Shown piece by piece: positions 5,058 through 30,606 of a DNA stretch of 48,328 nt. The stretch is taken from NCBI GenBank assembly GCA_024224665.1, contig JAAENG010000017.1, positions 1 to 48,328 on the forward strand, written 5' to 3'. The notes beneath the pieces are model-generated. The model did no database searches, was not told the origin of the DNA, and saw only the letters and a list, made by a program, of their open reading frames with translations. The DNA is from Chloroflexota bacterium. Lineage in GTDB: Bacteria > Chloroflexota > Anaerolineae > J102. How positions within the stretch are numbered: position 1 is the stretch's first letter; the number at the start of each line of letters is the position of its first letter. The translations under genes and the position numbers were made by a program.

Positions 5058-5344
5058 TTGTGGACATACATTCCATGTCAGATCCATGCTCACATCGTAA
5101 ACCGGCGAACCCGAATATAGGAAAACCGAAAAACCTGGTGTATGACGCCTCTACATTCGCTATGAAGGTACATCCCAGCCTACAGGTCTACAGGTCTACC
5201 GGTCTACCGGTCTACCGGCCTACAGGTCTACCGGTCTACCGACCTACCGGTCTACCGACCTACCGGTCTACCGGCCTACCGGTCTACCGGCCTACCGGTA
5301 CCTGGTCCACAAACACTCCCACAATCCCCATGTTGGATCTTCTA
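5058..5344 (+). mobile_element. Family A MITE-like element, copy with expanded internal octamer array
   Basis: Collinear with 30432..30606. Degenerate ends; flanks ATCAC/ATCAT. Length 287 = 175 + 14 extra octamers. Confidence 0.75.
5177..5296. repeat. Octamer tandem array GGTCTACC (15 units with variants)
   Basis: ggtctaca/ggtctacc/ggcctacc/gacctacc units in strict 8-bp register. Confidence 0.95.
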
Positions 5345-5375
5345 ATCATGGGTCGTCGGATTCGGTAATGCGTTT

Positions 5376-6221
5376 ATGCTAGTACAGCTTCTTATCGGTT
5401 TCATCTTGGCCGCCATCGTTGGTCTGCTGGGCTGGCGGTTGGGGGCGCTAACCCGCGGCGGTGCAGCTGGCGCTTTCCTCATCGGGGGCGCTGTCTTTGG
5501 TTTTGGTGGACCCACATGGGGAGCGATATTGGCCGTCTTCTTTGCCAGCAGCAGTTTCTTTTCTTACTTTCGAAGGCAGGATAAAGTCGGCGTTGCCGGC
5601 GAGTTTGCCAAGTCCAGCCGGCGGGATCTGGGGCAAACTTTGGCGAACGGCGGCGTTGCAGCTCTGTTAGCAATAGGCGTAGGAATTGTCACACGTGAGA
5701 GTCCTTGGTATCCTACCCTGACGCTCGCCTATTTCGGCGCCCTGAGCGCAGCGACCGCCGATACCTGGGCCACCGAACTGGGCGTATTGTCATCCCGTCC
5801 ACCCCGCCTTATCACCACCGGCGAAGTGGTAACGACCGGCCGTTCCGGCGCCGTCAGCTTTCTGGGTACACTTGCCAGTCTGGCAGGTGGAGCCTTTATC
5901 GGCATCAGTGCCTTTATTCTTATTCAGATGGCATCGCTGCTGTCTACCGGTAGCTGGTTCTTGCAGGACTGGTTTCTGATTCCCTTATGCACCCTTGCCG
6001 GATTACTCGGCTCGTTGTTCGATTCGCTACTTGGAGCAACCTGGCAGCGTATGTATTATTGCAATACCTGCCAAACCATAACCGAACAAACCCAGCACGA
6101 ATGCGGCCACCCAACACGCTCCATCCGGGGCATTTCCTGGCTTGGCAACGATCAGGTGAACTTCCTGACAACTGTAGTCGGCGCCCTGTCTGCCGCACTT
6201 GTAGGCCTCTTGTTTCTCTAG
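5376..6221 (+). CDS. DUF92 (TMEM19/VTE6-like) membrane protein
   Basis: RRDLGQTLANGG, ATADTWATELG, GRSGAVS, DSLLGATWQ, NDQVN motifs; CxxC...HxC insert near the C-terminus. Confidence 0.92.
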   Translation: MLVQLLIGFILAAIVGLLGWRLGALTRGGAAGAFLIGGAVFGFGGPTWGAILAVFFASSSFFSYFRRQDKVGVAGEFAKSSRRDLGQTLANGGVAALLAIGVGIVTRESPWYPTLTLAYFGALSAATADTWATELGVLSSRPPRLITTGEVVTTGRSGAVSFLGTLASLAGGAFIGISAFILIQMASLLSTGSWFLQDWFLIPLCTLAGLLGSLFDSLLGATWQRMYYCNTCQTITEQTQHECGHPTRSIRGISWLGNDQVNFLTTVVGALSAALVGLLFL

Positions 6222-6224
6222 ATT

Positions 6225-7037
6225 ATGACTGCCGTATCGACTGCCGTAGCGTCAGCCGTTTCCTCTCAAAACGAACGGCCCTTACTCAGCATTATTATAC
6301 CTGCCTATAACGAAGAACAGCGCCTGCCCGGGTCGCTGGAGAATATCCTTGCCTGGAAGAAATCGGTGCCGTATGAGATTGAGGTACTGATCGTCGAGAA
6401 TGGCAGCCAGGATCGTACGACTGAGGTGGCTGAATCATTCGCCCGCTCGTATGAGTTCGTGCACGTGCTCCATAGCGACAAAGGAAAAGGGGCCGCCGTC
6501 CGCGAAGGAATGATTCATGGGAGCGGCGACTATCTTTTTATTTGTGACTCCGATCTCTCTATGCCGATATCAGAAGTGGAGAAATTCTTGCCTCCCCAAT
6601 TACAGCAGTATGATGTGGCTATTGGCAGTCGCGAAGCGCCAGGGGCAGTGCGCTACAATGAACCGGAATACAGGCACATCATGGGAAGGGCCTTTAATCT
6701 TATTGTCCGTCTACTGGCCGTCCCTGGTTTTCATGATACCCAGTGTGGTTTCAAGATGTTCAAACGCGACGTCGCCCAGAATGTCTTTGCCCGCCAGACG
6801 ATTACCGGTTGGACCTTCGATGTCGAGGCACTCTATCTGGCCATTAAGAGTGGAGCCCATGTGGTCGAGGTACCCATCCACTGGTATTTCGACGCCGATA
6901 GCCGCGTGGATCCCATCCGAGACACCTGGCAGATGTTTTGGGATGTGATTCGTATTCGTGTCAACGATCTGCGCGGTCGATATGACCAACCGCCCCCGTC
7001 TCCACCTGCGTCCGAACATACCGTGGCCAACCGCTAA
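6225..7037 (+). CDS. GT2 polyprenol-phosphate glycosyltransferase (Alg5/DPM1-like)
   Basis: SIIIPAYNE, GKGAAVREG, DSD motif, AIGSR, DTQCGFKMF, FDVE. Confidence 0.93.
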   Translation: MTAVSTAVASAVSSQNERPLLSIIIPAYNEEQRLPGSLENILAWKKSVPYEIEVLIVENGSQDRTTEVAESFARSYEFVHVLHSDKGKGAAVREGMIHGSGDYLFICDSDLSMPISEVEKFLPPQLQQYDVAIGSREAPGAVRYNEPEYRHIMGRAFNLIVRLLAVPGFHDTQCGFKMFKRDVAQNVFARQTITGWTFDVEALYLAIKSGAHVVEVPIHWYFDADSRVDPIRDTWQMFWDVIRIRVNDLRGRYDQPPPSPPASEHTVANR

Positions 7038-7087
7038 AATGACTCTGTAGGCGCTTATGAAAAATGATCGACAAAGAATTGTCTATC

Positions 7088-7146
7088 TTGGTCTCTCATC
7101 TGACAAGGTGACTTGGTGGCAAAGTGATCACTTCGTCACCAAGTCA
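7088..7146 (-). repeat. Family C element (TCACCTTG-type octamers + TGTCAGATRAGAGACCAA tail), inverted copy
   Basis: Reverse complement ccaccaagtcaccttgtcagatgagagaccaa matches 34529..34560. Confidence 0.7.
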
Positions 7147-7171
7147 TTTATACCAGCGAAGTCTGGAATAA

Positions 7172-7347
7172 TCGTTGACACTATTTCCTCGTCAGATTTT
7201 TCTCTAAACCGTAAACCAGGAAACCTGAAGAACTGAAAAACCATGTTGATTGGACCTCAATACTGGCTTTGATGACGTGTTCCAGTCTACTGTTGTACCG
7301 GTACCTGGTCTACGATCAAGTCGGCACTCGACGTTTTGGATAGACAA
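7172..7347 (+). mobile_element. Family A MITE-like element, diverged copy
   Basis: Collinear with 30432..30606 (ttcc..tcagat, ccgtaaacc, gtctactgtt, ggtacctggtctac, ttttggat); about 176 bp. Confidence 0.65.
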
Positions 7348-7379
7348 AACCAGAAACAGAAACATATCTCTATTAAATC

Positions 7380-8222
7380 ATGGCAACAACTTACATCACA
7401 CAATTAGACGAAATCATCAACCTATCAGAGACAGATCAGAAAGCAGCTCGCAAAGCCCTACGCAAAGCTGTACCCAGTCTGCCCGACACGGCTGCTATGC
7501 AAACGGCCTTGGGCTTGACTTACATTTCCCTGGAGCAACCGCGCGATGCCGTTCGTGCCTTCAAACACGCCATCGAATTGGACCCAGGAGACCCGACCCC
7601 TCACTATCAGCTGGGTTCCCTGCAATCAGACATGGGACTTCTGCCTCACGCCGAAGAGAATTTGCGCTTTGCGGTTGCAGCCGAGCCGGAAAATGCCGAA
7701 TACATAGCCGCGCTGGGATTTGCCTACTACCGTAGTGACAAATCTGAATTGGCCATACAGACACTCGAAACTGCCGATGAAGCAGGCAGCGAGGATGATG
7801 AGGTATTCGCCTCTTTGGGCTATCTCTATTATTTTGAAGACAGATTCGAGGATTCACGACAGGCGTTCTCGCGCGCATTGGAACTGAACCCTGACTACGC
7901 CGAAGTCTATAACAACCGTGGCTATCTCAATATACTTCTAGGCGATCTCGTTGGTGCTCAAACCGATCTGAACCTCTGCCTAGAAAAGGACGATATCTTC
8001 CTGCGGGCGCGATACAATCTGGCGGCAACCACCTGGCTACAGGGCGATCAGGAAGAGGCCATGTCACTTTATGAAGACGCCCGCAGGCGCGACCAAGCCG
8101 ATGCTGAACTCAAACAGCATCTCGAAGACCTCGACCAGGTTGCCGAGCAACGGCCGGATGACGAAAGCGTCAAGGCATTATCGATCAAACTGGCCGTTGC
8201 CCAAAAAGCGAGCAGGCGCTAG
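7380..8222 (+). CDS. Tetratricopeptide repeat protein
   Basis: Repeated TPR consensus (ALGLTY..A...F.HAIELDP; ALELNPDYAEVYNNRG). Confidence 0.92.
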   Translation: MATTYITQLDEIINLSETDQKAARKALRKAVPSLPDTAAMQTALGLTYISLEQPRDAVRAFKHAIELDPGDPTPHYQLGSLQSDMGLLPHAEENLRFAVAAEPENAEYIAALGFAYYRSDKSELAIQTLETADEAGSEDDEVFASLGYLYYFEDRFEDSRQAFSRALELNPDYAEVYNNRGYLNILLGDLVGAQTDLNLCLEKDDIFLRARYNLAATTWLQGDQEEAMSLYEDARRRDQADAELKQHLEDLDQVAEQRPDDESVKALSIKLAVAQKASRR

Positions 8223-8608
8223 TGATATTACAGTGGTCTCGCGTGATCCTGGGCATATTTGCCAGTATCCTCATCAGCCTATTGGGTCTGGCCGCTGTCA
8301 TGGGGCTGGTCATCGCCTTTAGTGCCGCGAATAGCATCCAAGATGTACAGTCACTCTCCCGATATGGCTTTTTGAACAGCGTACTGTTCGGATTGGGTTG
8401 CGTCTGGGGATCCTATATCACCCTACGCCGGCTCAGTGTTGGCCACGTGCTGCATGGATTCCTGATTGGCCTGGGAGTGGGTCTAGTCAATTTCACCTTG
8501 ACGGACACGACATTTATCGGAAATCTGATTACCTTGTTACTGACATTGCCCGCCGGCGTTTTGGGCGCGCGCATGGCCGAACTCAACCCCAGACCCCGAT
8601 CTCAGTAA
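8222..8608 (+). CDS. Small 4-TM membrane protein
   Basis: GTG start overlaps the TPR stop; four hydrophobic helices; HGFLIGLG motif. Confidence 0.75.
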   Translation: MILQWSRVILGIFASILISLLGLAAVMGLVIAFSAANSIQDVQSLSRYGFLNSVLFGLGCVWGSYITLRRLSVGHVLHGFLIGLGVGLVNFTLTDTTFIGNLITLLLTLPAGVLGARMAELNPRPRSQ

Positions 8609-8669
8609 TACGCTGCCGAGTCAACTCCTTTCAACCTACGCTCCCCTTTCCACAGACAGTGAAGTCCCC

Positions 8670-9170
8670 ATGGCACGTGAAGAACTATCCTGGCAAGATA
8701 TCGAAAGACTGATCGACCACATCCTACCTCAGGTGGCAGGGCATTTTGATGTAATTCTCATCATTACTCGCGGTGGGATCATTCCGGGCGGCATGCTTGC
8801 CGAAACCTTGGATATCCGCGATGTATTGATCGCCGCAGTTGAATTTCCCAGTGATTCCGAGTTCGATACCTTTGCCTGGCCCACCTTCTTGCAATTTCCC
8901 ATCGACACACTATTGCGCGGGCGGCGTGTTTTGGTGGTGGATGATGTATGGGACAGTGGCCGCACCATCAACACCGTGCGGGGACGGGTGGAAGCTGCTG
9001 GTGGAGAACCACGAACCTGTGTATTGCACTATAAACCCAAAAAGTCGCGCTTTCGAGACCGCAGGCCCGATTTTTATGGCGCCGTCACCGATAATTGGGT
9101 TGTGTATCCTTGGGAGATCAACAGGGGACCTGAGTATGCAGAACGTGCGCCCAACCTGATTCTATCCTGA
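8670..9170 (+). CDS. Type I phosphoribosyltransferase (purine/Gpt-like)
   Basis: LSWQDI, ITRGG, PRPP motif VLVVDDVWDSGRT, PDFY, WVVYPWE. Confidence 0.92.
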   Translation: MAREELSWQDIERLIDHILPQVAGHFDVILIITRGGIIPGGMLAETLDIRDVLIAAVEFPSDSEFDTFAWPTFLQFPIDTLLRGRRVLVVDDVWDSGRTINTVRGRVEAAGGEPRTCVLHYKPKKSRFRDRRPDFYGAVTDNWVVYPWEINRGPEYAERAPNLILS

Positions 9171-9226
9171 GTTAGACTGAAGTCACCACCCTCTCTGGTC
9201 AATCGTTCTGTGACGATATTGTTGGT

Positions 9227-9348
9227 GGCTCATTCGGAATCTGAATCGCTCCTACTACAAAGGCCTGTTTCGTTTGGCGCACAAGCACCACGCAATACGC
9301 AACACGCAACACCTGTTTATCTAGGACCACGCGAGCTCCTGTTGAGCC
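9227..9348 (+). mobile_element. Family D MITE-like element with internal CAACACG heptamers
   Basis: Imperfect TIRs GGCTCA...TGAGCC; collinear with 39877..39988. Confidence 0.65.
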
Positions 9349-9380
9349 TTATTGGTTTCAATATGACCTTGGATCAGGTG

Positions 9381-10016
9381 TCAAGGTTCAGAGGAATCCA
9401 ACAGGCTTTCGATACGGCCAATCACCATGTCGACCGCGACCTCGTTGTACCCTCCCTCTGGGATGAGGATATCGGCATAGCGTTTGGAGGGTTCGACAAA
9501 TCGGATGTGCATGGGGCGAACGGTGTTTTGGTACTGATCGACGACCGACTCTACGGTACGTCCACGTTGGCTGATGTCACGTTGCAGGCGCCTGATGAAG
9601 CGTATATCTGGATCTGTTTCCACAAAAATCTTGATATTCATCAGATCCCTAAGCGCTTTATCAACGAAGACCAGGATGCCTTCGACCAAAATGACAGACG
9701 AAGGCATTACATGCCGGACGTTGACACTGCGCGTGTGGGTCGTAAAATCGTAGATCGGTACGTCCACAGATTCGCCCTGAACAAGTTTCTGAATATGGGA
9801 GATCAGTAACTCGTTGTCCAGCGAATTGGGGTGGTCGAAATTTAGACGCGCGCGTTCGTAAGTTGGGAGATGTGAGGCATCTTTATAATAGGCGTCGTGG
9901 GGGAGATAGGCGATGCGATCCCATCCCACCGTCTCCAGAATCCGATGAATGACGGTCGTCTTGCCTGAACCACTTCCACCGGCAAGACCCACCACTACAG
10001 GTGTTTCAGAGGGCAT
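9381..10016 (-). CDS. udk: Uridine kinase
   Basis: GLAGGSGSGKTT, DAYYKD, NFDHP, PIYDF, VEGIL, RRLQRD..RGR, VRPMH..FVEPSK. Confidence 0.97.
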   Translation of the reverse strand: MPSETPVVVGLAGGSGSGKTTVIHRILETVGWDRIAYLPHDAYYKDASHLPTYERARLNFDHPNSLDNELLISHIQKLVQGESVDVPIYDFTTHTRSVNVRHVMPSSVILVEGILVFVDKALRDLMNIKIFVETDPDIRFIRRLQRDISQRGRTVESVVDQYQNTVRPMHIRFVEPSKRYADILIPEGGYNEVAVDMVIGRIESLLDSSEP

Positions 10017-10021
10017 AGTGG

Positions 10022-11365
10022 TTACAACCCCTCGGTTTGTGGTGTGGCGTCAATCATGTTACCAGCCTTCTCTTGCTCGATATCAGCGATGAGTTCCGCG
10101 GGCGCAGGCCTGGCGCCTTTCTGCCCTTGCCAGCGGATGGCGGTGCCCGTACTGTCGTGAAGGACGCCCAACCGTACGTAGGGAAAGCGCCAACGGAGGA
10201 TCAGGCCGACCAACAGTAAGAATAGTGCCGGAATTAGCAACCACAAGTAAGGTCTGGCACTGATGCTCAACGTAACGGATTGGGTAGGCCTGAAAATTAG
10301 TTCCAGATCGCCGATGGACAGACTGGAATCACCTAGGATGTCGTCTGAGAGCAGTATGGCGTTGGAGGCATCAATTACCTGTATACGGTAGGATTGTGGG
10401 CCGTCGTTGACGATTCTCAACAAAAGGTTGTGGTCTGGAATCGCTATGGCGCGCTCACTACGCTCTTGAGGGAATCGAACGATCAGTTCAGTTGTAAGAT
10501 CGCCACGCTGTTCTATGGCATGCAACGGTAGCTCCTCCCCATCCATCGTAGCTCTGGCAATGAGTGCAGGCCCTACCTGCTGTTCTAGCAAGCGAATCAA
10601 CCCGGTGTTGCCTCCACCCGAACCGGCAAGAATCGATATCTGATTCTCACAGCAGAGGCTGACCATTGTGGCAGAGTCGTCGAGGCTGAGTGTGTCGTCG
10701 CTGAAGGGACTCAATGAAACAGTTTGACCGGGGCTCAGATCGATATCGGCCATTTGCCAACCATATTGCAGATTGAGGAGCAAAGTCAGTCCTATCATTA
10801 AGATGCCTATCTCGATGAGCATAGCGGACCAGGTCAGACGTTGATTGCGATCACCTAGCCAGAGGCCATGATCTTCGTCTGAAGGAGAGGGCTGTGAGGA
10901 TGTGCGATGGAAAGATGCGGCATAGTTTTGCTGCCCATACAGTGGAGGATTTGTGGTGGACTGGCGTATCTCGTAAACGTCGGTTAGCGGCAAAGTCTGG
11001 CTGGGTGCCTGGAGGTGGCGTGTGCACCAGGCCAACCACAGACGGTTGGATAGTCGTATGACGAGAATTGCGGTCGATAATGCCAGCAAAAAGCGTAACG
11101 TGCTAGTTCCTGCCAGATCAAAAAGACTCGATGCATGCAATAGCTCCCCAAAAGGCATTCCTCCTGCGGTGACAGTACTCCAGCTGTCGACAGCCACAGA
11201 GTCACCGGCCATAGCGGTTGGAACTTGGGGTAATAAGAGGTGAGCTAGCAAGAAAAGCAGGATCAACACAGTCAGGACGACAGGCCAGATAGGGTGGCTC
11301 AACGCCTGCCATGCGCGGGTCAGTGCTGTTGAATTGATAGCTGAGGGAGATCGTTCGAATGGCAT
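10022..11365 (-). CDS. ResB/Ccs1-like membrane protein (divergent)
   Basis: TM-LPQ, TM2, TM3-YGW, a large extracytoplasmic domain and a C-terminal RP-TM: the ResB topology. Confidence 0.5.
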   Translation of the reverse strand: MPFERSPSAINSTALTRAWQALSHPIWPVVLTVLILLFLLAHLLLPQVPTAMAGDSVAVDSWSTVTAGGMPFGELLHASSLFDLAGTSTLRFLLALSTAILVIRLSNRLWLAWCTRHLQAPSQTLPLTDVYEIRQSTTNPPLYGQQNYAASFHRTSSQPSPSDEDHGLWLGDRNQRLTWSAMLIEIGILMIGLTLLLNLQYGWQMADIDLSPGQTVSLSPFSDDTLSLDDSATMVSLCCENQISILAGSGGGNTGLIRLLEQQVGPALIARATMDGEELPLHAIEQRGDLTTELIVRFPQERSERAIAIPDHNLLLRIVNDGPQSYRIQVIDASNAILLSDDILGDSSLSIGDLELIFRPTQSVTLSISARPYLWLLIPALFLLLVGLILRWRFPYVRLGVLHDSTGTAIRWQGQKGARPAPAELIADIEQEKAGNMIDATPQTEGL

Positions 11366-11389
11366 TGCGAGATCAAGGTACTGTTATTC

Positions 11390-11421
11390 AATAAAAAACC
11401 CCAACCCATAGGGGCCGGGGC
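11390..11421 (-). terminator. Intrinsic terminator after tRNA-Thr
   Basis: Minus strand gccccggccc-ctat-gggttggggt followed by a T run. Confidence 0.8.
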
Positions 11422-11431
11422 TGATCACCAG

Positions 11432-11504
11432 AGCCACCCATCGGATTTGAACCGATGACCGACGCATTACGAATGCGTTGCTCTACCGACTGAGCTAGGG
11501 TGGC
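11432..11504 (-). tRNA. tRNA-Thr(CGT), CCA not encoded
   Basis: GCCACCC/GGGTGGC acceptor stem, TAGCTCAGTCGGTAGAGC D arm, ACGCA-TTCGTAA-TGCGT anticodon arm, GGTTCAAATCC T arm. Confidence 0.97.
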
Positions 11505-11518
11505 ATGGGACTGCTGAA

Positions 11519-11547
11519 ATTATAGCAAGGATGGAGATCAGAAGCAA
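11519..11547 (-). promoter_or_regulatory. Sigma70-type promoter of tRNA-Thr
   Basis: TTGCTT-N17-TATAAT with extended TG. Confidence 0.75.
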
Positions 11548-11586
11548 AGTGAACGGGTGGCATTTGTCTCAGAAGTAGAGTGGCGA

Positions 11587-12165
11587 TTACTGTGACATCT
11601 GCACCAGTGCGAGACGTAGGCGTTCCTCGACGCCGCTGGCCTCTTTAGACAAGCTCTGAACGGCTCGTTGAGCTTCGATTACACTGTAGCCCAGGCTGAT
11701 GAGCGCTTCGATAACCTCTGCATCATCATCGCTCATAGGGCTGACCGCCAGGCTTTCGAGATCGCTAATATCGAGTTTATCTTTGAGATGAAAGAGTATC
11801 TTCCTCGCGCTTTTGGCGCCAATACCCGGTACACGGGTCAAAAGGCCAACCTCCTCATTGACTACAGCTGTGCGGATCGTGTCGGGCGGTAAGGTTGCCA
11901 GGATATTGAGAGCCAGGCGAGGGCCAACACCACTGACAGCTGTCAGCATCAAGAAAAGCTGTAGTTCCTCAGACGAGTCAAAGCCAAACAGTGTGATATC
12001 TTGTTCTCGCACGTGCAGGTGTGTGAACAGTGAAAGTGTTTGCCCAAGCGAATAACTGGACAACTGTGTCTGTGGAACGTACACCATGACACCCAAAGCA
12101 CCCACATCTACAATGACATGATCGGCCCCCAAGTATTCGACGCGTCCACGCAAACGACTGATCAT
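11587..12165 (-). CDS. ruvA: Holliday junction branch migration protein RuvA
   Basis: MISRLRG, LFTHLHVRE, VSGVGPRLA, VPGIGAKSA HhH motifs, EALISLGY. Confidence 0.97.
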   Translation of the reverse strand: MISRLRGRVEYLGADHVIVDVGALGVMVYVPQTQLSSYSLGQTLSLFTHLHVREQDITLFGFDSSEELQLFLMLTAVSGVGPRLALNILATLPPDTIRTAVVNEEVGLLTRVPGIGAKSARKILFHLKDKLDISDLESLAVSPMSDDDAEVIEALISLGYSVIEAQRAVQSLSKEASGVEERLRLALVQMSQ

Positions 12166-12890
12166 TGCGCGCCCGGAGCCCTTAATCGCTGGAATCGATA
12201 GCCCACGCCTCGGAGAGTGAGGATATATCGAGGATCGGATGGATCTTCTTCGATTTTCGAACGAAGACGCCGAATTCCCACTTCAACTAGATTGGTAGAT
12301 CCCTCGAATTCGTACCCCCATACCTCACGAAATAGCTCCTCTTTGCCTATCGGCTGATCAATATGCATCATCATATAGCGTAAGAGTTCGAATTCAATGG
12401 GTGTGACTTGGCACTTGTTGCCGCGCACGGTGACATAACGAAACTCGACATCCAGTTCGACATCTCCATTCCGCAGAAGTTTTTCAGCGGGATCAGGTTG
12501 AGTCATCCATTCTACCCGTCGCAATATGGCCTCAACTCGCGCTGCGACTTCACGGAATGTAAAAGGTTTGGTGATGTAATCGTCTGCTCCCAACTGGAAT
12601 CCTTTGACGATATCGTCTCCCGAACCTAAAGCAGTCAAAAAGACCACCGGGACAGCTGAAGATTTTCGGATTTCTTCGAGAACGGCGAAACCATTGACCC
12701 TCGGCATCATGATATCTAGAACGACCATGTCGAAGGGCGATTCGTTCCTGAATGCATCAAGAGCCGCTTCACCATCGGCCACTACGACGACGTCATAGTC
12801 GATTGCTCTCAGACTCAACTCCATCAGATTTCGTAGAGGTGCTTCATCCTCTGCAATAAGGATGCGTGCCTTTAATGGGGGCTCATACAT
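12162..12890 (-). CDS. OmpR/PhoB-family response regulator (no adjacent kinase)
   Basis: AEDE, VLDIMMP, GADDYITKPF, winged helix LRSKIE..P..ILTLRGVGYRF. Start re-called at ATG 12890 (GGAG upstream). Confidence 0.93.
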   Translation of the reverse strand: MYEPPLKARILIAEDEAPLRNLMELSLRAIDYDVVVVADGEAALDAFRNESPFDMVVLDIMMPRVNGFAVLEEIRKSSAVPVVFLTALGSGDDIVKGFQLGADDYITKPFTFREVAARVEAILRRVEWMTQPDPAEKLLRNGDVELDVEFRYVTVRGNKCQVTPIEFELLRYMMMHIDQPIGKEELFREVWGYEFEGSTNLVEVGIRRLRSKIEEDPSDPRYILTLRGVGYRFQRLRAPGAQ

Positions 12891-13017
12891 CGATCGGGTA
12901 TCTCCAACGTCGCTCTTTCTTGAATGGACTACCAACATCATCTCCAATGAATGTATCATTTGGCTCAATGCTTCTGCCTGCCATCTCTGCGACAGTTTCA
13001 AATATACCGTTGCTGGC

Positions 13018-13527
13018 TCAAGGGTGTTGAAAAAGTGTATTCAATCGGAAAGAATGAAGCAGACAAATGGCCACGGCCAAAGCATCGGCGGCATCATCAG
13101 GTTTTGGGATAGACTCCAGTCCTAATAGCAGCCGCACCATTTCCTGAATTTGTCGTTTATCAGCACTGCCGTAACCGGCTACAGCTTGTTTGACCTGTGC
13201 AGGTTTGTAATGATACAACGGCAATCCGCGCTGGGCTATCGTTAGCAACACAACACCTCGCGCATGACCAACACTGAGCGCCGTACGAGCATTCTTGGAG
13301 AAGAAAAGCTCCTCGACTCCGGCGGCTTGATAATGATATCGATTCAGTATATCGTTTAGCTGGTCATAAATGGTAACGAGTCGAGTCTCGAGGTTGGTGT
13401 TTGCGGATGTGCGAATTACACCATAATCCAGTGCAAACAGATTGCCTTCACGTTCGCTGACAATGCCGTAACCGGTGATGGCCGTACCAGGATCGATACC
13501 TAGGAATACCGGTGTTGCTGAACTCAC
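13018..13527 (-). CDS. ruvC: Crossover junction endodeoxyribonuclease RuvC
   Basis: LGIDPG, VEELFF, GHARG, GYGSADK, PDDAADALA. Confidence 0.97.
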   Translation of the reverse strand: MSSATPVFLGIDPGTAITGYGIVSEREGNLFALDYGVIRTSANTNLETRLVTIYDQLNDILNRYHYQAAGVEELFFSKNARTALSVGHARGVVLLTIAQRGLPLYHYKPAQVKQAVAGYGSADKRQIQEMVRLLLGLESIPKPDDAADALAVAICLLHSFRLNTLFQHP

Positions 13528-14279
13528 GCAATATCCAGTTCTATGAGGAGTTCGTCGCTTAAGGCCAAGTTGGAATAGACATCCTGTACATCGTCGAGTT
13601 CTTCGAGTCGTTCCAACAGGTTCATGACCTTGATGGCATCTTGTGTTGGCAACGCCACCTCGCTTTGAGGCACCATGGTCAGTTCGGCCGAAACTACTTC
13701 GATATCTGAGGCGCTAAGGTTGTCGCGCACGCTGGCAAGATCTGCGGCCTCAGTGATAATCCCGGCTGTGTGATCATCACTTAAATCAACATCTTCCGCT
13801 CCGGCATCGACTGCAATCAGAAAGACATCCTCTTCGTCCAGGTCCTCTGTCTTGACAATAATCTGTCCTTTTCGGTCGAATTGCCATGCGACCGCACCAG
13901 AGCCGGCCAGATTGCCACCGGCTTTTGTAAAAACATGGCGTAACTCGGCAACAGTGCGATTACGATTACCGGTCATAACATCGACCATGACGGCGATACC
14001 ATTGTTTGCATAGCCCTCGTAGGTAATCTCCTCGAGATCAACACCTTTTTCGGTGCCTGCACCACGCCCGATCGCTCTCTCGATATTGTCTTTGGGCATA
14101 TTTGCGGCTTTTGCTTTATCTAATACCAATCGCAAACGGATGTTCATGTCAGGGTCAGGGCCACCCGCCCTTGCCGCAACTTGTAACTCGCGCGCGATTT
14201 TTGTAAAAACCTTGCCGCGTTGAATGTCTACTGCGGATTTCCGCCGTTTTATGTTAGCCCATTTGCTATGTCCTGACAT
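13524..14279 (-). CDS. yebC: YebC/PmpR family protein
   Basis: MSGHSKWANIK, NMPKDNIERAI, YEGY, LEELDDVQDVYSN. Confidence 0.97.
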   Translation of the reverse strand: MSGHSKWANIKRRKSAVDIQRGKVFTKIARELQVAARAGGPDPDMNIRLRLVLDKAKAANMPKDNIERAIGRGAGTEKGVDLEEITYEGYANNGIAVMVDVMTGNRNRTVAELRHVFTKAGGNLAGSGAVAWQFDRKGQIIVKTEDLDEEDVFLIAVDAGAEDVDLSDDHTAGIITEAADLASVRDNLSASDIEVVSAELTMVPQSEVALPTQDAIKVMNLLERLEELDDVQDVYSNLALSDELLIELDIA

Positions 14280-14347
14280 TGACGACTCCAGAAGTAAGGT
14301 ATTTTTTCCGGGAACGAGTCAGTCGCTCGTTCCATCGGTTGAGTAGC

Positions 14348-14356
14348 ATTATATCA
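14348..14356 (-). promoter_or_regulatory. Extended -10 promoter of the yebC-ruv operon
   Basis: TGATATAAT on the minus strand; 8-bp hairpin ggaacgag/ctcgttcc (14311..14333) in the leader. Confidence 0.55.
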
Positions 14357-14389
14357 TATTCATGCTCTTAATTGCAGAACGACATCCAG

Positions 14390-16042
14390 CTAGCTATCCG
14401 TTTCAAGAAGGGAAGTATCTATGCCTTTGAGTTCAGGCCGGCTTTCTTTTCTTTCGATCACTGCCGTGATGTATGCTGCGAACAGAGGGTGAGCCGCAGC
14501 GGGTCGGGACTTGAATTCAGGATGGAATTGACTGCCCAACATAAAGGGATGATCGGCCAATTCTACGATTTCGACGAGATGGGCATCTGGGCTCAAACCA
14601 CTGTAGATTAAGCCCGCATTGCCGAGAATTTGACGGTAAGTGTTGTTGAATTCCCAGCGATGACGATGCCGCTCTTCGACCTGATCGGTCTGATAGGCTT
14701 GTTTTGCCCGTGTACCCGGCTGCAACTGGCAAGGATAAAGTCCCAAGCGCATGGTGCCACCCTTTTCTACGATGTCACGCTGGTCGGCCATAAGGTCGAT
14801 GACCGGGTAGCGCGTACGCTGGTCGAATTCAGTGCTGTTGGGTTCGTCAGAGCCATAAACCAGTCTGGCCAGTTCGATACACATGACCTGCATGCCCAAA
14901 CAGAGGCCCAGGTAGGGTAATTTGTGTTGCCGCGCATATCCTGCAGCGATGATCTTTCCCTCGATACCACGATACCCAAATCCACCCGGCACGATGATGC
15001 CATGCACCCTGTCCAGTCGTTCTTTATCGCGCCCACGCTCGAGGTCTTCAGAGTTAATCCACTCGATATCTATACTATGGTCTCTATCTAGACCGGCATG
15101 AAAGAGAGCCTCGCGCACGCTCATGTAGGCGTCCTGCAATGCCACATATTTGCCGACGAGCCCCACGCGTACGGTCGGTTTGGGTTTATGAATGCGTTCG
15201 ACCAGTTCTATCCACGGCTTAAGATCGGGAGGTGACGTCTCTAGATTCAATCGTTCGACCAGAAAATCGCCCAATCCTGCTTCTTCTAAGGTAAGGGGTA
15301 CATCATAGATGCTCTTGGCCGTGACCAGCGGAATCACCGCCCGTGGCTCGACATCGCAGAATAGCGCGATCTTGTCCCGTACTGCGTCGTCAACAGGGTG
15401 ATCTGAGCGGCAACAGATTACATCAGGCTGGATACCGATGCCGCGTAGTTCGCGCACACTATGCTGCGTCGGTTTGGTCTTAAGCTCATCGGTGGCCCCC
15501 AGATGAGACAAAAGCGTGAGATGGATGTAGACTGTGTTCTCTCTGCCGGCATCTTTCCGCATCTGTCGTAATGCTTCCAGGAAGGGCAATCCTTCGATAT
15601 CACCGACTGTGCCGCCTACTTCGATCAAGACAACCTCGGCATTGGTCTCACGCACGACCATACCTATGCGCCTTTTGATCTCGTTGGTGACATGTGGGAT
15701 CACCTGAATCGTGCCACCCAAGTAGTCACCACGTCGTTCACGGCCAATCACCTCGGCGTAGATCTGACCGCTGGTCACATTGCTGGACTGGGTGACATTG
15801 ACACTTGTGAATCGCTCGTAATGGCCGAGATCAAGGTCGGTTTCGGCGCCGTCGTCCGTAACAAAGACCTCGCCATGTTGGTACGGGCTCATGGTGCCTG
15901 GGTCCACGTTGAGGTAGGGGTCCAGTTTTTGACCCGCCACGGCGATGCCGCGGCTACGCAATAAACGTCCGATAGCGGCGGCTGTTACGCCCTTCCCCAA
16001 CCCACTGACGACACCGCCGGTTACGAAGATGTATTTGGTCAT
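14390..16042 (-). CDS. pyrG: CTP synthase
   Basis: MTKYIFVTGGVVSGLGKG, DPGTMSPYQHGE, KTKPTQ, GLCLGMQ, QFHPEF; start at ATG 16042. Confidence 0.98.
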   Translation of the reverse strand: MTKYIFVTGGVVSGLGKGVTAAAIGRLLRSRGIAVAGQKLDPYLNVDPGTMSPYQHGEVFVTDDGAETDLDLGHYERFTSVNVTQSSNVTSGQIYAEVIGRERRGDYLGGTIQVIPHVTNEIKRRIGMVVRETNAEVVLIEVGGTVGDIEGLPFLEALRQMRKDAGRENTVYIHLTLLSHLGATDELKTKPTQHSVRELRGIGIQPDVICCRSDHPVDDAVRDKIALFCDVEPRAVIPLVTAKSIYDVPLTLEEAGLGDFLVERLNLETSPPDLKPWIELVERIHKPKPTVRVGLVGKYVALQDAYMSVREALFHAGLDRDHSIDIEWINSEDLERGRDKERLDRVHGIIVPGGFGYRGIEGKIIAAGYARQHKLPYLGLCLGMQVMCIELARLVYGSDEPNSTEFDQRTRYPVIDLMADQRDIVEKGGTMRLGLYPCQLQPGTRAKQAYQTDQVEERHRHRWEFNNTYRQILGNAGLIYSGLSPDAHLVEIVELADHPFMLGSQFHPEFKSRPAAAHPLFAAYITAVIERKESRPELKGIDTSLLETDS

Positions 16043-16057
16043 GCTTGCTGCCTCTCT

Positions 16058-16092
16058 AAAAAGAAGAGACACGGAGATGGCTCTCCGTGTCT
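16058..16092 (-). terminator. Leader terminator/attenuator upstream of pyrG
   Basis: Perfect 11-bp stem agacacggaga/tctccgtgtct plus CTTCTTTTT, ending 15 nt before the pyrG start. Confidence 0.7.
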
Positions 16093-16190
16093 GGGATAGC
16101 TGGAGGATAAAACTGCCCGAGTTGAGCAGGATGTTGGGGGTTGCGATAAATGGCGATGCAACGAAGGTACCTGTTCGAAAAAGCTAGGGG

Positions 16191-16220
16191 ATGATAGCAT
16201 GTCCTGTAGTAGTGTGTCAA
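16191..16220 (-). promoter_or_regulatory. Sigma70-type promoter of pyrG
   Basis: TTGACA-N18-TATCAT with extended TG. Confidence 0.7.
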
Positions 16221-16291
16221 TCGAGTTAGCGAGTGCCGCAACCTCATACTCATGTTGCGGCGCTGCGCCAATCTGATTGGTGCGGTACGGA

Positions 16292-16328
16292 TAACAAAAT
16301 AGACCCCGCACCTGAGCGCAGGGTCTAT
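16292..16328 (-). terminator. Intrinsic terminator after the PspC gene
   Basis: Minus strand atagaccctgcgc-tcag-gtgcggggtctat-tttgttat. Confidence 0.75.
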
Positions 16329-16377
16329 ACGTTGGATCGTAAATCGAGAGGGACTAGTTTCTGGAAGGAGAAGCTTG

Positions 16378-17208: not shown

Positions 17209-17468
17209 GTGACCTCCAAAAAAGTGGCCGTGACTATTGATCGGCCAGTATGATTTTTCCTATCTTTCATACAACTATACGCAAGATATCAGGTTAGGGT
17301 CGCGCGGCACTTTGGGCTTCGCGTGACGATTTGAGGCGAAGCTTCGCTACATGGTTACGCGAGTGCCATGATAGCACGCCGAGTGTTTTTGCCCTACGCT
17401 GCGGACGAACGTTACAATCTAACTCAACCCCATTCCTCCTTGCTGGTAGCGACCGCTCTTAATATAAA

Positions 17469-18275: not shown

Positions 18276-18278
18276 TCT

Positions 18279-18314
18279 CAGTAGATCCAAATTCCACATC
18301 AGATGCTTCTCCAT
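18279..18314 (+). repeat. Solo left end of a family A element
   Basis: 35/36 identical to 30432..30467. Confidence 0.85.
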
Positions 18315-18374
18315 TTAATCCCGGCCGGTTTCATATGAACCGCTTAACCCCAATCATCCCAAAATAATCCTATC

Positions 18375-19688
18375 ATGAGTGATCATTATATTATCAATGG
18401 TGGCAAGCCACTTCAGGGCGCAGTGAAGGTTGCCGGTAACAAAAACGCAGCCCTGCCCATGTTGGCTGCATGTTTGCTGACCGACGAACCGGTAACACTG
18501 CACAATGTCCCGCGTATCGGCGATGTCGATACGCTCCTGCGCTTGCTCCAAGATGTTGGCGTGCGCGTTATCGCCAACGGCGGCAGCTCCATCACCCTCC
18601 ACGCCGAAAATATCGAAACCCGCAAGCTTTCGTCGGAACTCTGTCTCCGTATCCGCGCCTCGATTCTCCTGGCCGGACCCATGCTTGGCCGCCTGGAACA
18701 GGTCGAACTACCTCCACCAGGGGGTGATGTCATCGGACGCCGGCGTATCGACACCCACATTCTGGCTTTCGAGGCGTTGGGAGCCAAAATCAAACATGAT
18801 CCGGTCACACATAGTCTGCACATCCAGGCTGATGGTCTGCAAGGCACAGACATGATGCTGGATGAGGCCAGTGTTACCGCTACCGAGAACGCACTGATGG
18901 CCGCAGTGCTCACACCCGGACAGACCATAATCCGCAATGCCGCTTCTGAGCCACATGTGCAAAACCTTTGCCGTATGCTTTGTGGTATGGGAGCGATTAT
19001 CGACGGCATTAGTAGCAATACGCTAACTGTGCAAGGCGTCGATCGATTGCGTGGTGGTGAATTCGAAATTGGCCCCGATTTGCTCGAGGTAGGCTCATTC
19101 CTGGGCCTCGGGGCGGTCACTCCCGGTGAGCTTCGTATCAAAAACGTTATCTCCGATGAATTGCGCATGGTGCTCTATGTCTTTCGTGAACGGCTGGGTG
19201 TCAACTGTTGGCTGGATGGCGACGATCTGGTGGTGGGCAGTGAGCAAGATCTCCATGTTGCCATGGATCGAGGTGATGCTGTACCCAAGATCGACGACGG
19301 ACCATGGCCCCATTTCCCCGCCGATCTACTTTCTATCGCCTTGATTGTGGCCACGCAAGCGCAGGGTACTGTGCTCATCCACGAGAAAATGTTTGAGAGT
19401 CGTCTCTTCTTTGTAGACAAGTTAATCAATATGGGGGCGCGCATCATTTTGTGCGATCCGCACCGGGCCGTGGTGGTGGGGCCTTCGCAGCTCTATGGCC
19501 AGGCAGTCTCGAGTCCAGACATCCGTGCCGGTATGACAATGGTCATCGCAGCACTGGCCGCAGAGGGGACCAGCATCATCGCCAATATAGGCCAGATCGA
19601 TCGCGGTTATGAACGCCTGACCGAGAAGTTGCAGGCATTGGGGGCTGATATCGTCCGCAGTAGTGCGCCCACCCCGGTTGTGGCATAA
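18375..19688 (+). CDS. murA: UDP-N-acetylglucosamine 1-carboxyvinyltransferase (Asp-type)
   Basis: [55 protein letters not shown]. Confidence 0.97.
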
Positions 19689-19698
19689 GGCCTGATTT

Positions 19699-21201
19699 GT
19701 GAACACCCGTCGCCGTGATCAGGTGCAACGATACGGTCCTTTGGGGCTCATCCTCACGGTCTATTTGCTGCTGGGATGTTTGTATGTCTTGTTTACACCC
19801 ACCTGGCAAGCGCCCGACGAACCCGCTCACTACAATTACCTCCGCCAGGTTGCGACAAGCGCACGTTTACCGGTTTTACTGCAAGGGGATTATGATCAGG
19901 CCTATCTGGAAGCGATCAAGGCTCAGAAATTCCCAGACGATATGTCTATCGATCGTATCCGTTACGAGGGGCATCAACCGCCCTTGTACTATTGGCTTGC
20001 CTCACCTGTTTATCGGTTGACCTCTCATCTCGATATTTCTCGAAGCGTTCAGGCAATAAGGCTGTTAGGGGTCGTGCTGGGGGCGGGGGTCGTCATCCTG
20101 GTGTGGGCCAGCTCCCGGCGGCTATTTCCCTCCCATCCTCATATTGCCACGCTAGCTGCGGGATTTGCTGCCTTCCTGCCCATGCATCTGGCGATGATGG
20201 CATCGATTAACAATGATACACTGGCAGAGCTACTCATCGCCCTCGGTGTCTACAGATTGCTTGGACACCTCAAACATGGTGAATGGCGGGCCCGTGCATG
20301 GGTTGTCACCGGTATTGTGGTCGGTTTGGGTATGCTGACAAAATTTCAAGCCTACATATTGCTACCCATGACCGGCATCGTCTGGTTGTATGATGTGTGG
20401 CGTTGCCGCCAAGAAAGAGAGTGTAAGAGGAGCACCTGGCTGAATGGCGTGGGCTGGTTGCTCCCACCCTTGTTGTTACCCCTGGCCTGGTGGCGGCGCA
20501 ACACCATGGTCTATGGTCTGACCGATCCACTGGGCTTGTACTGGCACGACGCCGTTGTTGTCGGCCAACCCCGCACAGCAGAGTGGATTGCGGCCAATGG
20601 CTGGGGGGGCTATCTCGACCGCTATGTGAGTTTTACATTCAAGTCTTTCTGGGGAGTTTTTGGCTGGCTGGGTGCTTTTATGGATGGGCGGGTTTATTCA
20701 CTGCTGTTTATTCTCAGCGTTTTGGTCGTGGTGGGTATGCTCTGGCAGCTAGGGCGCTATCGACTTGGCACCATTAAACTGTCTGAATACCAAAAGCGTG
20801 GCCTGGTGCTGTTAGTGATTCAGCTCCTGATCGTCCTCCTCACCTATCTCTGGTACAACCTCGGTTTTGTCCAACACCAGGGTCGCTATCTCTTCCCCGC
20901 CCTTGTCCCGATTAGTATCGCCTTCGCGATCGGCCTCAACGGCCTGTTCTCGCCTCAAGGGAGCCGTTGGGGAGCTATTGTTGCCATTGGGCTCGTGGCT
21001 ATCATGGGCCTGCTAGGACTGGCAACAGGGGGTCCCGACAAATGGGCGTTGCTCATGGCATTACTGGCGGCAATCGTACTTGGCCTGCACAGTCGATTTG
21101 CGCTTTTGCCGCAGAGGTTACTCACCACGGCAACGCTGGTATTGCTCATTGTTATAGATCTGTATGCTCTATTCGGCGTTGTGGTTCCACAGTTGGGTTA
21201 A
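19699..21201 (+). CDS. GT-C fold membrane glycosyltransferase (PMT_2/DUF2142-like)
   Basis: PDEPAH, HQPPLYY, INND, LTK, QGRYLFP; multi-TM. Confidence 0.85.
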   Translation: MNTRRRDQVQRYGPLGLILTVYLLLGCLYVLFTPTWQAPDEPAHYNYLRQVATSARLPVLLQGDYDQAYLEAIKAQKFPDDMSIDRIRYEGHQPPLYYWLASPVYRLTSHLDISRSVQAIRLLGVVLGAGVVILVWASSRRLFPSHPHIATLAAGFAAFLPMHLAMMASINNDTLAELLIALGVYRLLGHLKHGEWRARAWVVTGIVVGLGMLTKFQAYILLPMTGIVWLYDVWRCRQERECKRSTWLNGVGWLLPPLLLPLAWWRRNTMVYGLTDPLGLYWHDAVVVGQPRTAEWIAANGWGGYLDRYVSFTFKSFWGVFGWLGAFMDGRVYSLLFILSVLVVVGMLWQLGRYRLGTIKLSEYQKRGLVLLVIQLLIVLLTYLWYNLGFVQHQGRYLFPALVPISIAFAIGLNGLFSPQGSRWGAIVAIGLVAIMGLLGLATGGPDKWALLMALLAAIVLGLHSRFALLPQRLLTTATLVLLIVIDLYALFGVVVPQLG

Positions 21202-21209
21202 AGACTAGA

Positions 21210-27601: not shown

Positions 27602-27683
27602 CTTTAGGACTGGTGGCCGAGCCTAATGCCGTATTGACTGCTGGCAATAAGAGCGGCTCTGGCACCGAATAACAGGCCCTATT

Positions 27684-28553: not shown

Positions 28554-28788
28554 TTCACCTCTTTTGGGTCTGCATCCGAACTCGCACCTGCGGCCTACTA
28601 CTTGCTACCTGCCCTAACGGGGCCTGATTTTCTCAGCGCGGTCCGGGAATAATCGCTAGACGTGTCTTATCGTTTACTTATCCGTCTTCAAGAATAGCAC
28701 AGTCAGTACGCCGATGCTATTAGGGCTGGTTGACACGATTCGCATCTGACCTTTCAGCCCGACATAACTCAAAACACGAAAGTTTCTT

Positions 28789-28817
28789 TTTACAATTGCA
28801 TGGCGTTGGGCTAGAAT
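28789..28817 (+). promoter_or_regulatory. Sigma70-type promoter of folC
   Basis: TTTACA-N17-TAGAAT. Confidence 0.6.
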
Positions 28818-28838
28818 GATTTGATTCTTTTCACTCAA

Positions 28839-28938
28839 GGCTTTTTCAGCAAAATAATGATCCGGTTCAACCTGAGAAAGCTTCATGCGAATTCCTCGAT
28901 AACGCAAGACTCTGGATCATTATTTCTTGGAATTCGCC
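28839..28938 (+). mobile_element. Family B 100-bp MITE, TSD CAA
   Basis: CAA on both sides; inverted homolog of 22871..22970. Confidence 0.85.
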
Positions 28939-28957
28939 CAACCCATTCAGAGTAATC

Positions 28958-30412
28958 ATGACGGACTATCAAAGAGTCCTTTTAGAGATCTTCGAGCACG
29001 TCGATTACAGTCGCTCTCGACAGATACCTTACAACGCCAGCACCTATAATCTCGGCCGCATGCGGGAATTGTGCAAACGTCTGGGGAATCCTCAGGATCA
29101 ATATCCATCTTTGCACATTGCCGGCAGCAAAGGCAAAGGTTCGACAGCCGCTATGGCCACCGCTATCTTGCAAGCGGCTGGATATCGCACCGGTCTATAC
29201 ACATCACCCCATTTGCACAGCTTCCGCGAGCGCATGCGCATCGACGGCGAACTGATTACACAAGAACAGCTCATTGAATTGTGGGGTCATGTCCGGCCCA
29301 TTGTGCGATCGCTCGAACGTACAACGACATTCGAGATCATCACCGCCTTGGCGTTTATGCATTTCAGCCGATCTCATGTCGGTTGGGCTGTGATGGAAGT
29401 CGGATTGGGTGGACGTCTCGACGCTACCAACGTGATACAATCTCAAGCATGCGCCATCACTTCACTCAGCTTCGAACATACCGACCTATTAGGCCATACG
29501 CTCAGCCTCATCGCCTTTGAAAAAGCAGGCATCATTAAATATGGTAACCCTGTTGTCGTAGGGCCGCAAGCGCCGGAAGCTATTTCGGTGATAGAAGACG
29601 TGGCAGAACAGACTGGCGCCAAATTGTGGCATGTCGGAGATGCTCATGAGCATCAGAATGGTTCCAAAAAAGTGCCTGATTGGCGTTGGATTCTGCATAA
29701 AGCTGACTCATCCGGCTTATGGTTGGATATCGTCAGCCCAGATGTGAAGATAAATGATATCGTCGTTCCCTTGGTGGGGTACCACCAGGCCGCTAATGCA
29801 ACTGTTGCCGTTGCCCTTGTACACACGTTACGCCAATCGGGCATCGAGATACCGGTCGCAGCCATTCGCGATGGTCTTGCACAGACCTACTGGCCTGGCC
29901 GCCTGGAGCGCCTTAATGAGGAGCCGCTCATCATTGTAGACAGCGCGCACAATGGCCAGAGTGCGGAGCGGCTAGAGCATTCTTTGCAATTGTTCCAATA
30001 TAAACGTCTGATATTGATTTTCGGTGCGTCGGCTGACAAGGATATCCAAGGTATGCTTGCGGTTCTGGCGCCACAAGCAGCCGCCATCTTGGTGACCCGC
30101 AGTTTTCACCCGCGTGCCGCAGAGCCGAAGACATTGGCCGAACTGGCGCGAGAGATCGCCCCAGATGTACCTGTCCATGTATTCGACGATGCCATTCCGG
30201 CATTGGAACTGGCGACCTCTTGGGCAGACAAAGAGGACCTCATTCTGGTTACCGGCTCTATATTTGTGGTCGCAGCGGCGCGCGAGGCATGGCGCGACAT
30301 CAGCCCCGGTTCATTGCCGCCAGAGGACTGGGCCTATCAAGCCGAGCCTATCGATGGTGAATTTGCACCCATGTTGAAAGACAGCTCACAGCACATACCT
30401 GAAAGCTTCTGA
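28958..30412 (+). CDS. folC: Folylpolyglutamate synthase/dihydrofolate synthase
   Basis: HIAGSKGKGST, YTSPHL...ER, EVGLGGRLDATN, EKAGIIK, WPGRLE, DSAHN, VTGS. Confidence 0.96.
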   Translation: MTDYQRVLLEIFEHVDYSRSRQIPYNASTYNLGRMRELCKRLGNPQDQYPSLHIAGSKGKGSTAAMATAILQAAGYRTGLYTSPHLHSFRERMRIDGELITQEQLIELWGHVRPIVRSLERTTTFEIITALAFMHFSRSHVGWAVMEVGLGGRLDATNVIQSQACAITSLSFEHTDLLGHTLSLIAFEKAGIIKYGNPVVVGPQAPEAISVIEDVAEQTGAKLWHVGDAHEHQNGSKKVPDWRWILHKADSSGLWLDIVSPDVKINDIVVPLVGYHQAANATVAVALVHTLRQSGIEIPVAAIRDGLAQTYWPGRLERLNEEPLIIVDSAHNGQSAERLEHSLQLFQYKRLILIFGASADKDIQGMLAVLAPQAAAILVTRSFHPRAAEPKTLAELAREIAPDVPVHVFDDAIPALELATSWADKEDLILVTGSIFVVAAAREAWRDISPGSLPPEDWAYQAEPIDGEFAPMLKDSSQHIPESF

Positions 30413-30431
30413 TCACATATAATTTTATTCT

Positions 30432-30606
30432 CAGTAGATCCATATTCCACATCAGATGCTTCTCCATACCGTAAACCGGTAAACCTGAATACCGGAAAAC
30501 CGGGTGAATTACGCCTTGATATGCGTTTGGGCGGTGTATCCCGGTCTACTGTTCTACTGGTACCCGGTCTACAAACGCATCAACACGCCACTTTTTGGAT
30601 CTACTG
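30432..30606 (+). mobile_element. Family A MITE, best-preserved copy (175 bp, 11-bp TIR, 5-bp TSD)
   Basis: CAGTAGATCCA...TGGATCTACTG flanked by ATTCT on both sides. Confidence 0.88.

What the first reader, a model, noticed from the sequence alone, without database searches (positions are those of the whole stretch)
5058..30606. 175-bp MITE family A acts as a seed for microsatellite expansion
Seen: 30432-30606 has a perfect 11-bp TIR (CAGTAGATCCA) and a 5-bp TSD (ATTCT). Collinear copies lie at 5058-5344 (flanks ATCAC/ATCAT) and 7172-7347, plus a solo left end at 18279-18314 (35/36 identical). The element has an 8-bp-periodic left arm (TAAACCGG-like) and a quasi-complementary right arm (GGTCTACY). 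In the 5058 copy the right arm has 15 units instead of 2 and the left arm has one extra unit, which exactly explains the length (175+14x8=287). Inference: a non-autonomous transposon distributes proto-repeats that then amplify in place, a concrete origin for the arrays.
Basis: partly seen in the sequence, partly recalled or inferred. Interest (0 to 1): 0.7.

Follow-up and report, generated by a model that had tools for sequence, protein, structure and literature searches.

The report
ISH3-type MITE carrying borrowed octamer repeats
A 175-base non-coding element with transposon ends carries a hairpin of 8-base repeats that likely came from a different selfish gene cassette and likely lengthens after the element lands, so the element appears to spread repeat seeds without being their original source.

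Summary
Family A has 74 core copies in this genome, none in a predicted gene; 10 keep both ends, and their 5-bp flanks co-vary as target duplications (p=0.0002). The likely mobiliser is a 1.29-kb ISH3-like insertion sequence with the same 16-bp ends and A-N-N-C-T target; it was found in related genomes and metagenomes, not in this assembly. Right-arm unit number runs from 1 to 34, with copy-private variants repeated inside single arrays, which supports growth in place. The claim that the MITE is the origin of the arrays is only partly right: 7 of 50 placeable long arrays lie in copies with MITE ends, and the same octamer arms occur without ends in relatives, once around a four-helix-bundle (PF05635) gene whose orthologous site here carries long arrays and no MITE end. 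Elsewhere the same ends enclose 21 unrelated interiors, two matching four-helix-bundle arms or REP-like repeats of the same genome. No empty site was shown. Minisatellite-bearing MITEs are published (BrickBuilt). This scan earlier noted, on other DNA, the four-helix-bundle cassettes and CAGTAGAT-ended MITEs (parent not found).

The parts
30432..30606 (+). Family A MITE, best-kept copy (175 bp), between folC-like and lon genes
30427..30431 (+). Left target duplication ATTCT (right copy 30607-30611)
30432..30447 (+). Left terminal inverted repeat, 14 of 16 identical to ISH3-like IS ends (L048, L051)
30471..30502 (+). Left arm, four imperfect 8-bp units (GTAAACCG type)
30503..30542 (+). Family-A spacer (inner stem-loop)
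30543..30572 (+). Right arm: two GGTCTACY units plus the conserved closing motif
30591..30606 (+). Right terminal inverted repeat
5058..5344 (+). Family A copy with expanded array, decayed ends, flanks ATCAC/ATCAT; left flank overlaps the stop codon of the upstream gene
5177..5296 (+). 15-unit right array; variant GACCTACC occurs twice here and in no other of the 17 long right arrays
7172..7347 (+). Older family A copy, flanks 3 of 5 identical
18279..18314 (+). Solo left end, preceded by AATCT, ending where the left arm would start

Best explanation
Family A is a non-autonomous transposon (MITE) with the 16-bp ends and 5-bp A-N-N-C-T target duplication of a 1.29-kb ISH3-like insertion sequence, whose DDE transposase likely moved it in trans; its interior is a hairpin of inverted 8-bp repeats likely borrowed from the arms of a four-helix-bundle gene cassette, and these repeats likely lengthen by local slippage after insertion. 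Shown: the family, its ends, the duplications, the matching autonomous element in other genomes, the same arms around a four-helix-bundle gene in a relative, and copy-private repeat variants. Inferred: mobilisation by that transposase, the order of assembly (hairpin first, ends added), and slippage as the growth mechanism. The MITE is one of at least two routes that spread these octamer seeds in this genome.
For: Ends and target: 10 of 74 copies keep both ends; flank identity 36 of 50 against 26.9 on permuted pairs, p=0.0002, and no excess as inverted repeats. Autonomous partner: L048, L050, L051 and L125 are 1.29-kb elements with these ends; 52 of 80 metagenome loci of this transposase have both ends, 1275-1300 bp, with 23 perfect and 17 four-of-five duplications among 51 measurable. 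The transposase has D, D, E and Y-2-R-3-E-3-R invariant in 6 of 6 aligned proteins; PMC2266710 (passages) gives CRGT ends, 5-bp A...T duplications and this motif for ISH3. Only the first 16 bp are shared: the next 20 bp match at best 10 of 20 among 123 IS ends. Borrowed hairpin: L234 (same family as the host) has a PF05635/TIGR02436 gene between arms of the same octamers at a carbamoyltransferase-carbamate kinase junction; the orthologous junction in G000 has at least 14 left and 29 right units with no MITE end on the assembled sides. 39 of 40 octamer stretches from 7 relatives lack an end match. Parallel cases: the same ends enclose 51 interiors in 21 unrelated clusters, 18 of 21 strongly folded; one matches the arms of a four-helix-bundle gene in its own genome (45 bp, 96%, E 1e-15), another the palindromes around a Y1 transposase gene in its own genome (16-22 bp matches). 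Growth in place: units of one array are identical more often than permuted (0.37 against 0.20, maximum 0.24 in 2000), and 9 variants are repeated within one array only (6 of 17 long arrays); the three copies with perfect duplications have 1, 2 and 4 units, while a near relative (C596) has 22.
Against: No such transposase was found in G000 (assembly 91.7% complete, 628 contigs). The partner proteins score 169-188 bits on NF033541, below its cut-off of 225. No empty site was found. Only 1 of 30 four-helix-bundle loci had these arms by my count, and what lies between the arms at the G000 junction is not assembled. On a 56-column tree, cores with and without ends are interleaved and mostly unresolved, so end-less cores could be eroded MITEs; then family A would hold up to 23 of 50 placeable long arrays. 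The family-A spacer matches relatives only weakly (best E 2e-5). In three other genomes the interiors occur nearly always inside the ends (30 of 30; 26 of 27 and 13 of 14 with at least one end), so free-standing donors are not shown there. Unit number does not rise with divergence from consensus (rho -0.13, p=0.30) and nearest neighbours share length a little (rho 0.33, p=0.008), so some length may be inherited or lost by contraction.
Confidence: 0.72

Rival explanations
1. Reverse order of assembly: a short, empty ISH3-type MITE existed first, and the gene-less octamer hairpin was inserted into it by whatever moves the four-helix-bundle cassettes.
For: A bare 26-bp double end with a 4-of-5 duplication exists in another genome (L073). 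The solo left end at 18279 stops where the arm begins, and other ends without arms occur.
Against: No left end joined to a right end without the core was seen in G000 (33 left and 29 right ends). Twenty-one different interiors would each need to hit a very small shell.
Confidence: 0.2
2. One reading: the MITE is the source of the genome's octamer arrays; end-less copies are eroded MITEs.
For: Cores with and without ends mix in starred tree clades; end-less cores are further from consensus (0.69 against 0.75); 29 of 74 copies keep only one end, so ends are lost often.
Against: 27 of 50 placeable long arrays are not family A at all; other spacer families carry the same octamer; end scores of the 35 end-less copies equal the intergenic null; in 12 of 26 sense copies without a left end the arm starts within 15 bp of, or inside, the upstream stop codon, as in the gene cassettes; relatives have the arms without ends.
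Confidence: 0.12
3. The arrays grow by an enzyme tied to the cassettes (for example templated repeat addition involving the Avd-like four-helix-bundle protein), not by plain slippage.
For: Arrays sit mainly in cassette-type arms of periods 7 and 8 (635 intergenic arrays); PF05635 being Avd-like is recalled, not tested.
Against: Private point variants are copied within arrays, often in higher-order patterns, as expected from duplication of the local DNA and not from a fixed template.
Confidence: 0.07
4. A conserved structured RNA or operon control element kept by selection.
For: Stable fold (z=-4.3); 74 of 74 intergenic; 33 of 45 in sense between co-directional genes (p=0.0025).
Against: No Rfam match; target duplications; left-end 28-mer in 0 of 400 other genomes of the class; the 5058 and 7172 copies no longer fold as the long stem; unrelated neighbour genes.
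Confidence: 0.04

Closest known systems
BrickBuilt and 464/PgRS MITEs of Porphyromonas gingivalis (PMC4596501; abstract and section 7 read)
   Same: Intergenic MITE, about 20 copies, internal tandem repeat, ends matching a resident IS, few copies with both ends (4 of 19), different interiors sharing one type of end.
   Different: IS5-type ends and 23- or 41-bp direct repeats there; here ISH3-type ends, an inverted pair of 8-bp arrays, and a traceable donor for the repeats.
ISH3 family insertion sequences (PMC2266710, passages; NF033541)
   Same: CAGT ends, 5-bp A...T duplication, 1.2-1.5 kb, DDE with Y-2-R-3-E-3-R in the partner element.
   Different: Described there as restricted to archaea; this clade is in Chloroflexota-class genomes and scores below the NCBIfam cut-off; family A has no gene.
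Four-helix-bundle (PF05635/TIGR02436) genes between inverted 7-8-bp arrays
   Same: Same octamer arms (L234), position just after a stop codon inside operons, gene-less hairpin forms.
   Different: The cassettes seen here have no 16-bp ends; family A has them and has no gene.
TIMEs, Tn3-derived miniature elements (PMC4133298, abstract only)
   Same: Transposon ends that mobilise unrelated DNA between them.
   Different: 38-bp Tn3 ends, composite transposons with plasmid genes; here 16-bp ends directly around 30-270-bp hairpins.
Intergenic heptamer repeats of Beggiatoaceae, Xanthomonas and Nostoc (PMC4679880, PMC4692102; passages)
   Same: Abundant intergenic short tandem repeats inside operons, length-variable, origin left open.
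   Different: Those passages tie the repeats to no MITE or cassette; PMC4692102 says they were generally not found with mobile elements.

Membership tests
MITE | Short, non-coding, multicopy | tested here: met
   144-321 bp for the 10 two-ended copies, 74 cores, none in a predicted gene
MITE | Terminal inverted repeats | tested here: met
   11 bp perfect at 30432; 16 bp shared with IS ends
MITE | Target-site duplication | tested here: met
   36 of 50 against 26.9 permuted, p=0.0002; 3 of 10 perfect
MITE | Autonomous element with the same ends | tested here: met
   In other genomes; not in G000
MITE | Empty site or demonstrated transposition | tested here: inconclusive
   0 of 10 junctions found elsewhere in the genome; no skipping joint over the copies in window 1-20000 in 4 runs of contigs
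ISH3 family (partner element) | Ends CRGT, 4-5-bp duplication with A and T at its ends, 1225-1500 bp | tested here: met
ISH3 family (partner element) | DDE triad and Y-2-R-3-E-3-R motif | tested here: met
   D133, D214, E321, Y314, R317, R325 invariant in 6 of 6
ISH3 family (partner element) | NF033541 curated cut-off (225 bits) | tested here: not met
   169, 188 and 178 bits, full-length and best hit for 3 of 4 proteins; the fourth frame given was not the transposase. Filed as ISH3-like.
Four-helix-bundle cassette | PF05635 gene between the arms | tested here: not met
   No gene in family A; none of the 6 PF05635 loci of G000 has these arms. Met for L234 in a relative.
Four-helix-bundle cassette | Inverted arms of tandem 7-8-bp units | tested here: met
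REP/REPIN with RAYT | Repeat flanks a Y1 transposase gene in the genome | tested here: not met
   0 of 5 Y1 loci in G000 show family-A sequence
Known structured RNA | Rfam match | tested here: not met
   only a tRNA in the window

The most novel reading that the evidence does not exclude
One widespread ISH3-like transposase clade with near-invariant 16-bp ends repeatedly turns the hairpins of other selfish elements (four-helix-bundle cassette arms, REP-like palindromes of Y1 transposases) into new MITE families. This gives a relay, cassette arm to gene-less hairpin to MITE to in-place expansion, that could account for much of the unexplained excess of 7-8-bp intergenic tandem repeats in bacteria.
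Probability: 0.4. Interest if true: 0.7.

Novelty: new variant of a known kind. Interest (0 to 1): 0.5.

Why it matters
Long 7-8-bp tandem repeats are over-represented in many bacteria and their origin is open (PMC4692102, PMC4679880; passages). Here a donor (cassette arms), a carrier (a MITE with an identified transposase clade) and in-place growth can be read in one genome, and each step can be tested. The 16-bp ends also look like a minimal cargo system: they enclose 21 unrelated interiors and, once, nothing at all.

Tried and rejected
I first suspected that the 5-bp 'duplication' was part of the conserved end; the co-variation test reversed that. REP/RAYT origin: none of 5 Y1 loci in G000 carries family A. 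A gene-carrying family A in G000: none among inverted array pairs up to 1.6 kb or end pairs up to 4 kb. Autonomous partner in G000: none; among 5 other MITE-bearing genomes only one fragment. Family-A left end elsewhere: 0 of 400 class genomes, 0 metagenome hits. Reads: two holders from one sample, no RNA holder listed; contigs only, no informative joint; the 30432 copy was not examined with reads. Tree of cores: too short to order the events. Literature: searches gave no paper on ISH3-type MITEs in Chloroflexota or on arms of four-helix-bundle cassettes inside MITEs; the library lacks most subscription journals, and no supplements were read (the ISH3 end alignment of PMC2266710 is in one). 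Dropped rows: 9 of 74 copies without a full core; 69 of 123 end matches without a partner (28 lacked enough flank). Gene positions come from my own simple gene caller.
Full report
Observation. The 30432 copy has an 11-bp perfect inverted repeat; the solo end is 35/36 identical; the 5058 copy has 15 right units against 2 and one more left unit, which gives 287 bp exactly. A profile of the core finds 74 copies in the 5.77-Mb assembly and none in the reversed genome. All 74 lie outside predicted genes; of 45 between co-directional genes 33 are in sense. Rfam has no match.

Is the duplication real? The five bases on both sides are conserved across copies as A-N-N-C-T, so the ATTCT pair alone could be part of the end. 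With those five columns masked, 10 copies have both ends, 15 the left only, 14 the right only and 35 neither (false rate 0 of 149 left and 2 of 149 right on other intergenic DNA; the end profiles were built from these copies). In the 10, left and right flanks agree at 36 of 50 positions against 26.9 for permuted pairs (p=0.0002), with no excess as inverted repeats. They are target duplications at a preferred target.

The mobiliser. CRGT ends with a 5-bp A...T duplication define ISH3 in PMC2266710 (passages). G000 has no such gene, but 26 of 301 genomes of its class match NF033541, and three of the 30 loci fetched are complete 1.29-kb elements ending in the family-A repeat (L048, L050, L051), as is L125. 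In metagenomes 52 of 80 loci of this transposase have both ends. The proteins carry the DDE triad and the ISH3 motif but stay below the NCBIfam cut-off, so I call them ISH3-like. Family A shares only the first 16 bp with them: it is not a simple internal deletion of any element seen.

The interior. In G000 each of the 6 four-helix-bundle (PF05635) loci is flanked by inverted 7- or 8-bp arrays of its own type, and gene-less hairpins of several of these types occur. The family-A octamer also sits in at least three other spacer families. In seven relatives the octamer hairpin has no MITE end (39 of 40 stretches; the one match is on the wrong side). One of 30 related four-helix-bundle loci, L234 in the same family, has an intact gene between exactly these arms, at a carbamoyltransferase-carbamate kinase junction. 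The orthologous genes in G000 end contig C141 and start contig C292 with at least 14 left and 29 right units and no MITE end; the middle is unassembled. So long arrays of this octamer arise here without the MITE.

A general pattern. 54 pair into elements, 38 with perfect duplications (7.2 expected). Their 51 short interiors form 21 unrelated clusters, 18 of which fold at z of -2 or lower. In one Acidobacteriota genome an interior matches the arms of a four-helix-bundle gene of that genome over 45 bp at 96%; in another genome the interior palindrome matches the repeats beside a Y1 transposase gene. Against a simple picture of free donors, these interiors occur nearly always inside the ends in the three genomes checked. 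One locus is a bare 26-bp pair of ends.

Growth in place. In 65 copies with a full core the right arm has 1-34 units; 17 have 8 or more. Units within an array are more alike than permuted (0.37 against 0.20), and 9 variants recur in one array only, including one in the 5058 copy. The copies with perfect duplications are short (1, 2, 4 units). The expansion lies between the spacer and a conserved closing motif. Against a steady clock, length does not track divergence, neighbours share length weakly, and copies with and without ends do not differ (p=0.20). Slippage is inferred from these patterns and from general knowledge of tandem repeats; contraction in single copies is not excluded, and reads could not confirm unit counts.

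How much does the MITE explain? Of 66 arrays with 8 or more units, 7 are in family-A copies with an end, 16 in end-less family-A cores, 27 elsewhere and 16 cut by contig ends. The end-less cores may be eroded MITEs (tree interleaved and unresolved) or hairpins placed by the cassette route (12 of 26 sense copies without a left end start at the upstream stop codon; end scores at null level). The MITE share is therefore 7 to 23 of 50 placeable long arrays of this octamer, in a genome with 635 intergenic 7-8-bp arrays.

Comparison and novelty. MITEs with an internal tandem repeat and IS-matching ends are published for Porphyromonas gingivalis (PMC4596501, abstract and section 7). Ends that mobilise foreign DNA are known from TIMEs (PMC4133298, abstract). 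ISH3 was described as archaeal (PMC13343696 passages). PMC3733652 (passages) gave background only. The scan had noted the four-helix-bundle cassettes many times and CAGTAGAT-ended MITEs in another Anaerolineae genome without a parent. What this work adds is the parent clade and the link between the two systems, which my seven searches did not find in print. Verdict: a real MITE, a new variant of a known kind; the seed idea is right for a minority of arrays and the deeper source is probably the cassette arm. Interest 0.5.

Noticed in passing
window 40782-42735: An IS1182-type transposase (DUF772 and DDE_Tnp_1_6 in separate frames) sits after a GTGGTCGC array and appears to interrupt a hairpin of another repeat family.
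   Followed up: no
window 34295-34547, 1-58, 7080-7150: Other 8-bp arrays and hairpins (TGGTCGTT, GTCACCCT, GTGACAAG types), some with 16- or 24-bp higher-order periods; one abuts the 7172 copy.
   Followed up: partly
G000 C7, C461, C69, C368, C301, C24: Six four-helix-bundle loci, each between inverted 7-8-bp arrays of its own type; C69 and C368 are broken.
   Followed up: partly
G000 C225, C160, C311, C448, C137, C57, C451 and others: At least three further spacer families use the family-A octamer, some chimeric with other array types or in tandem.
   Followed up: partly
G000 C141:1-113 and C292:6976-7212: Two contigs end in the left and right arms at one gene junction and are probably adjacent. 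33 of 157 arrays of this octamer lie within 60 bp of a contig end.
   Followed up: yes
L073:2206-2231: A bare 26-bp palindrome of two ends with a 4-of-5 duplication, the smallest form of this MITE.
   Followed up: no
L279-L308 (G410): A 101-bp MITE with these ends and at least 41 near-identical copies, a recent burst in a genome where no NF033541 match was found.
   Followed up: partly
L234-L252: The carbamoyltransferase-carbamate kinase junction holds a four-helix-bundle cassette in many genomes of the class, with different arm units.
   Followed up: no
L445, L446, L448: GxxExxY genes are flanked by inverted 9-bp repeats, like the four-helix-bundle cassettes.
   Followed up: no
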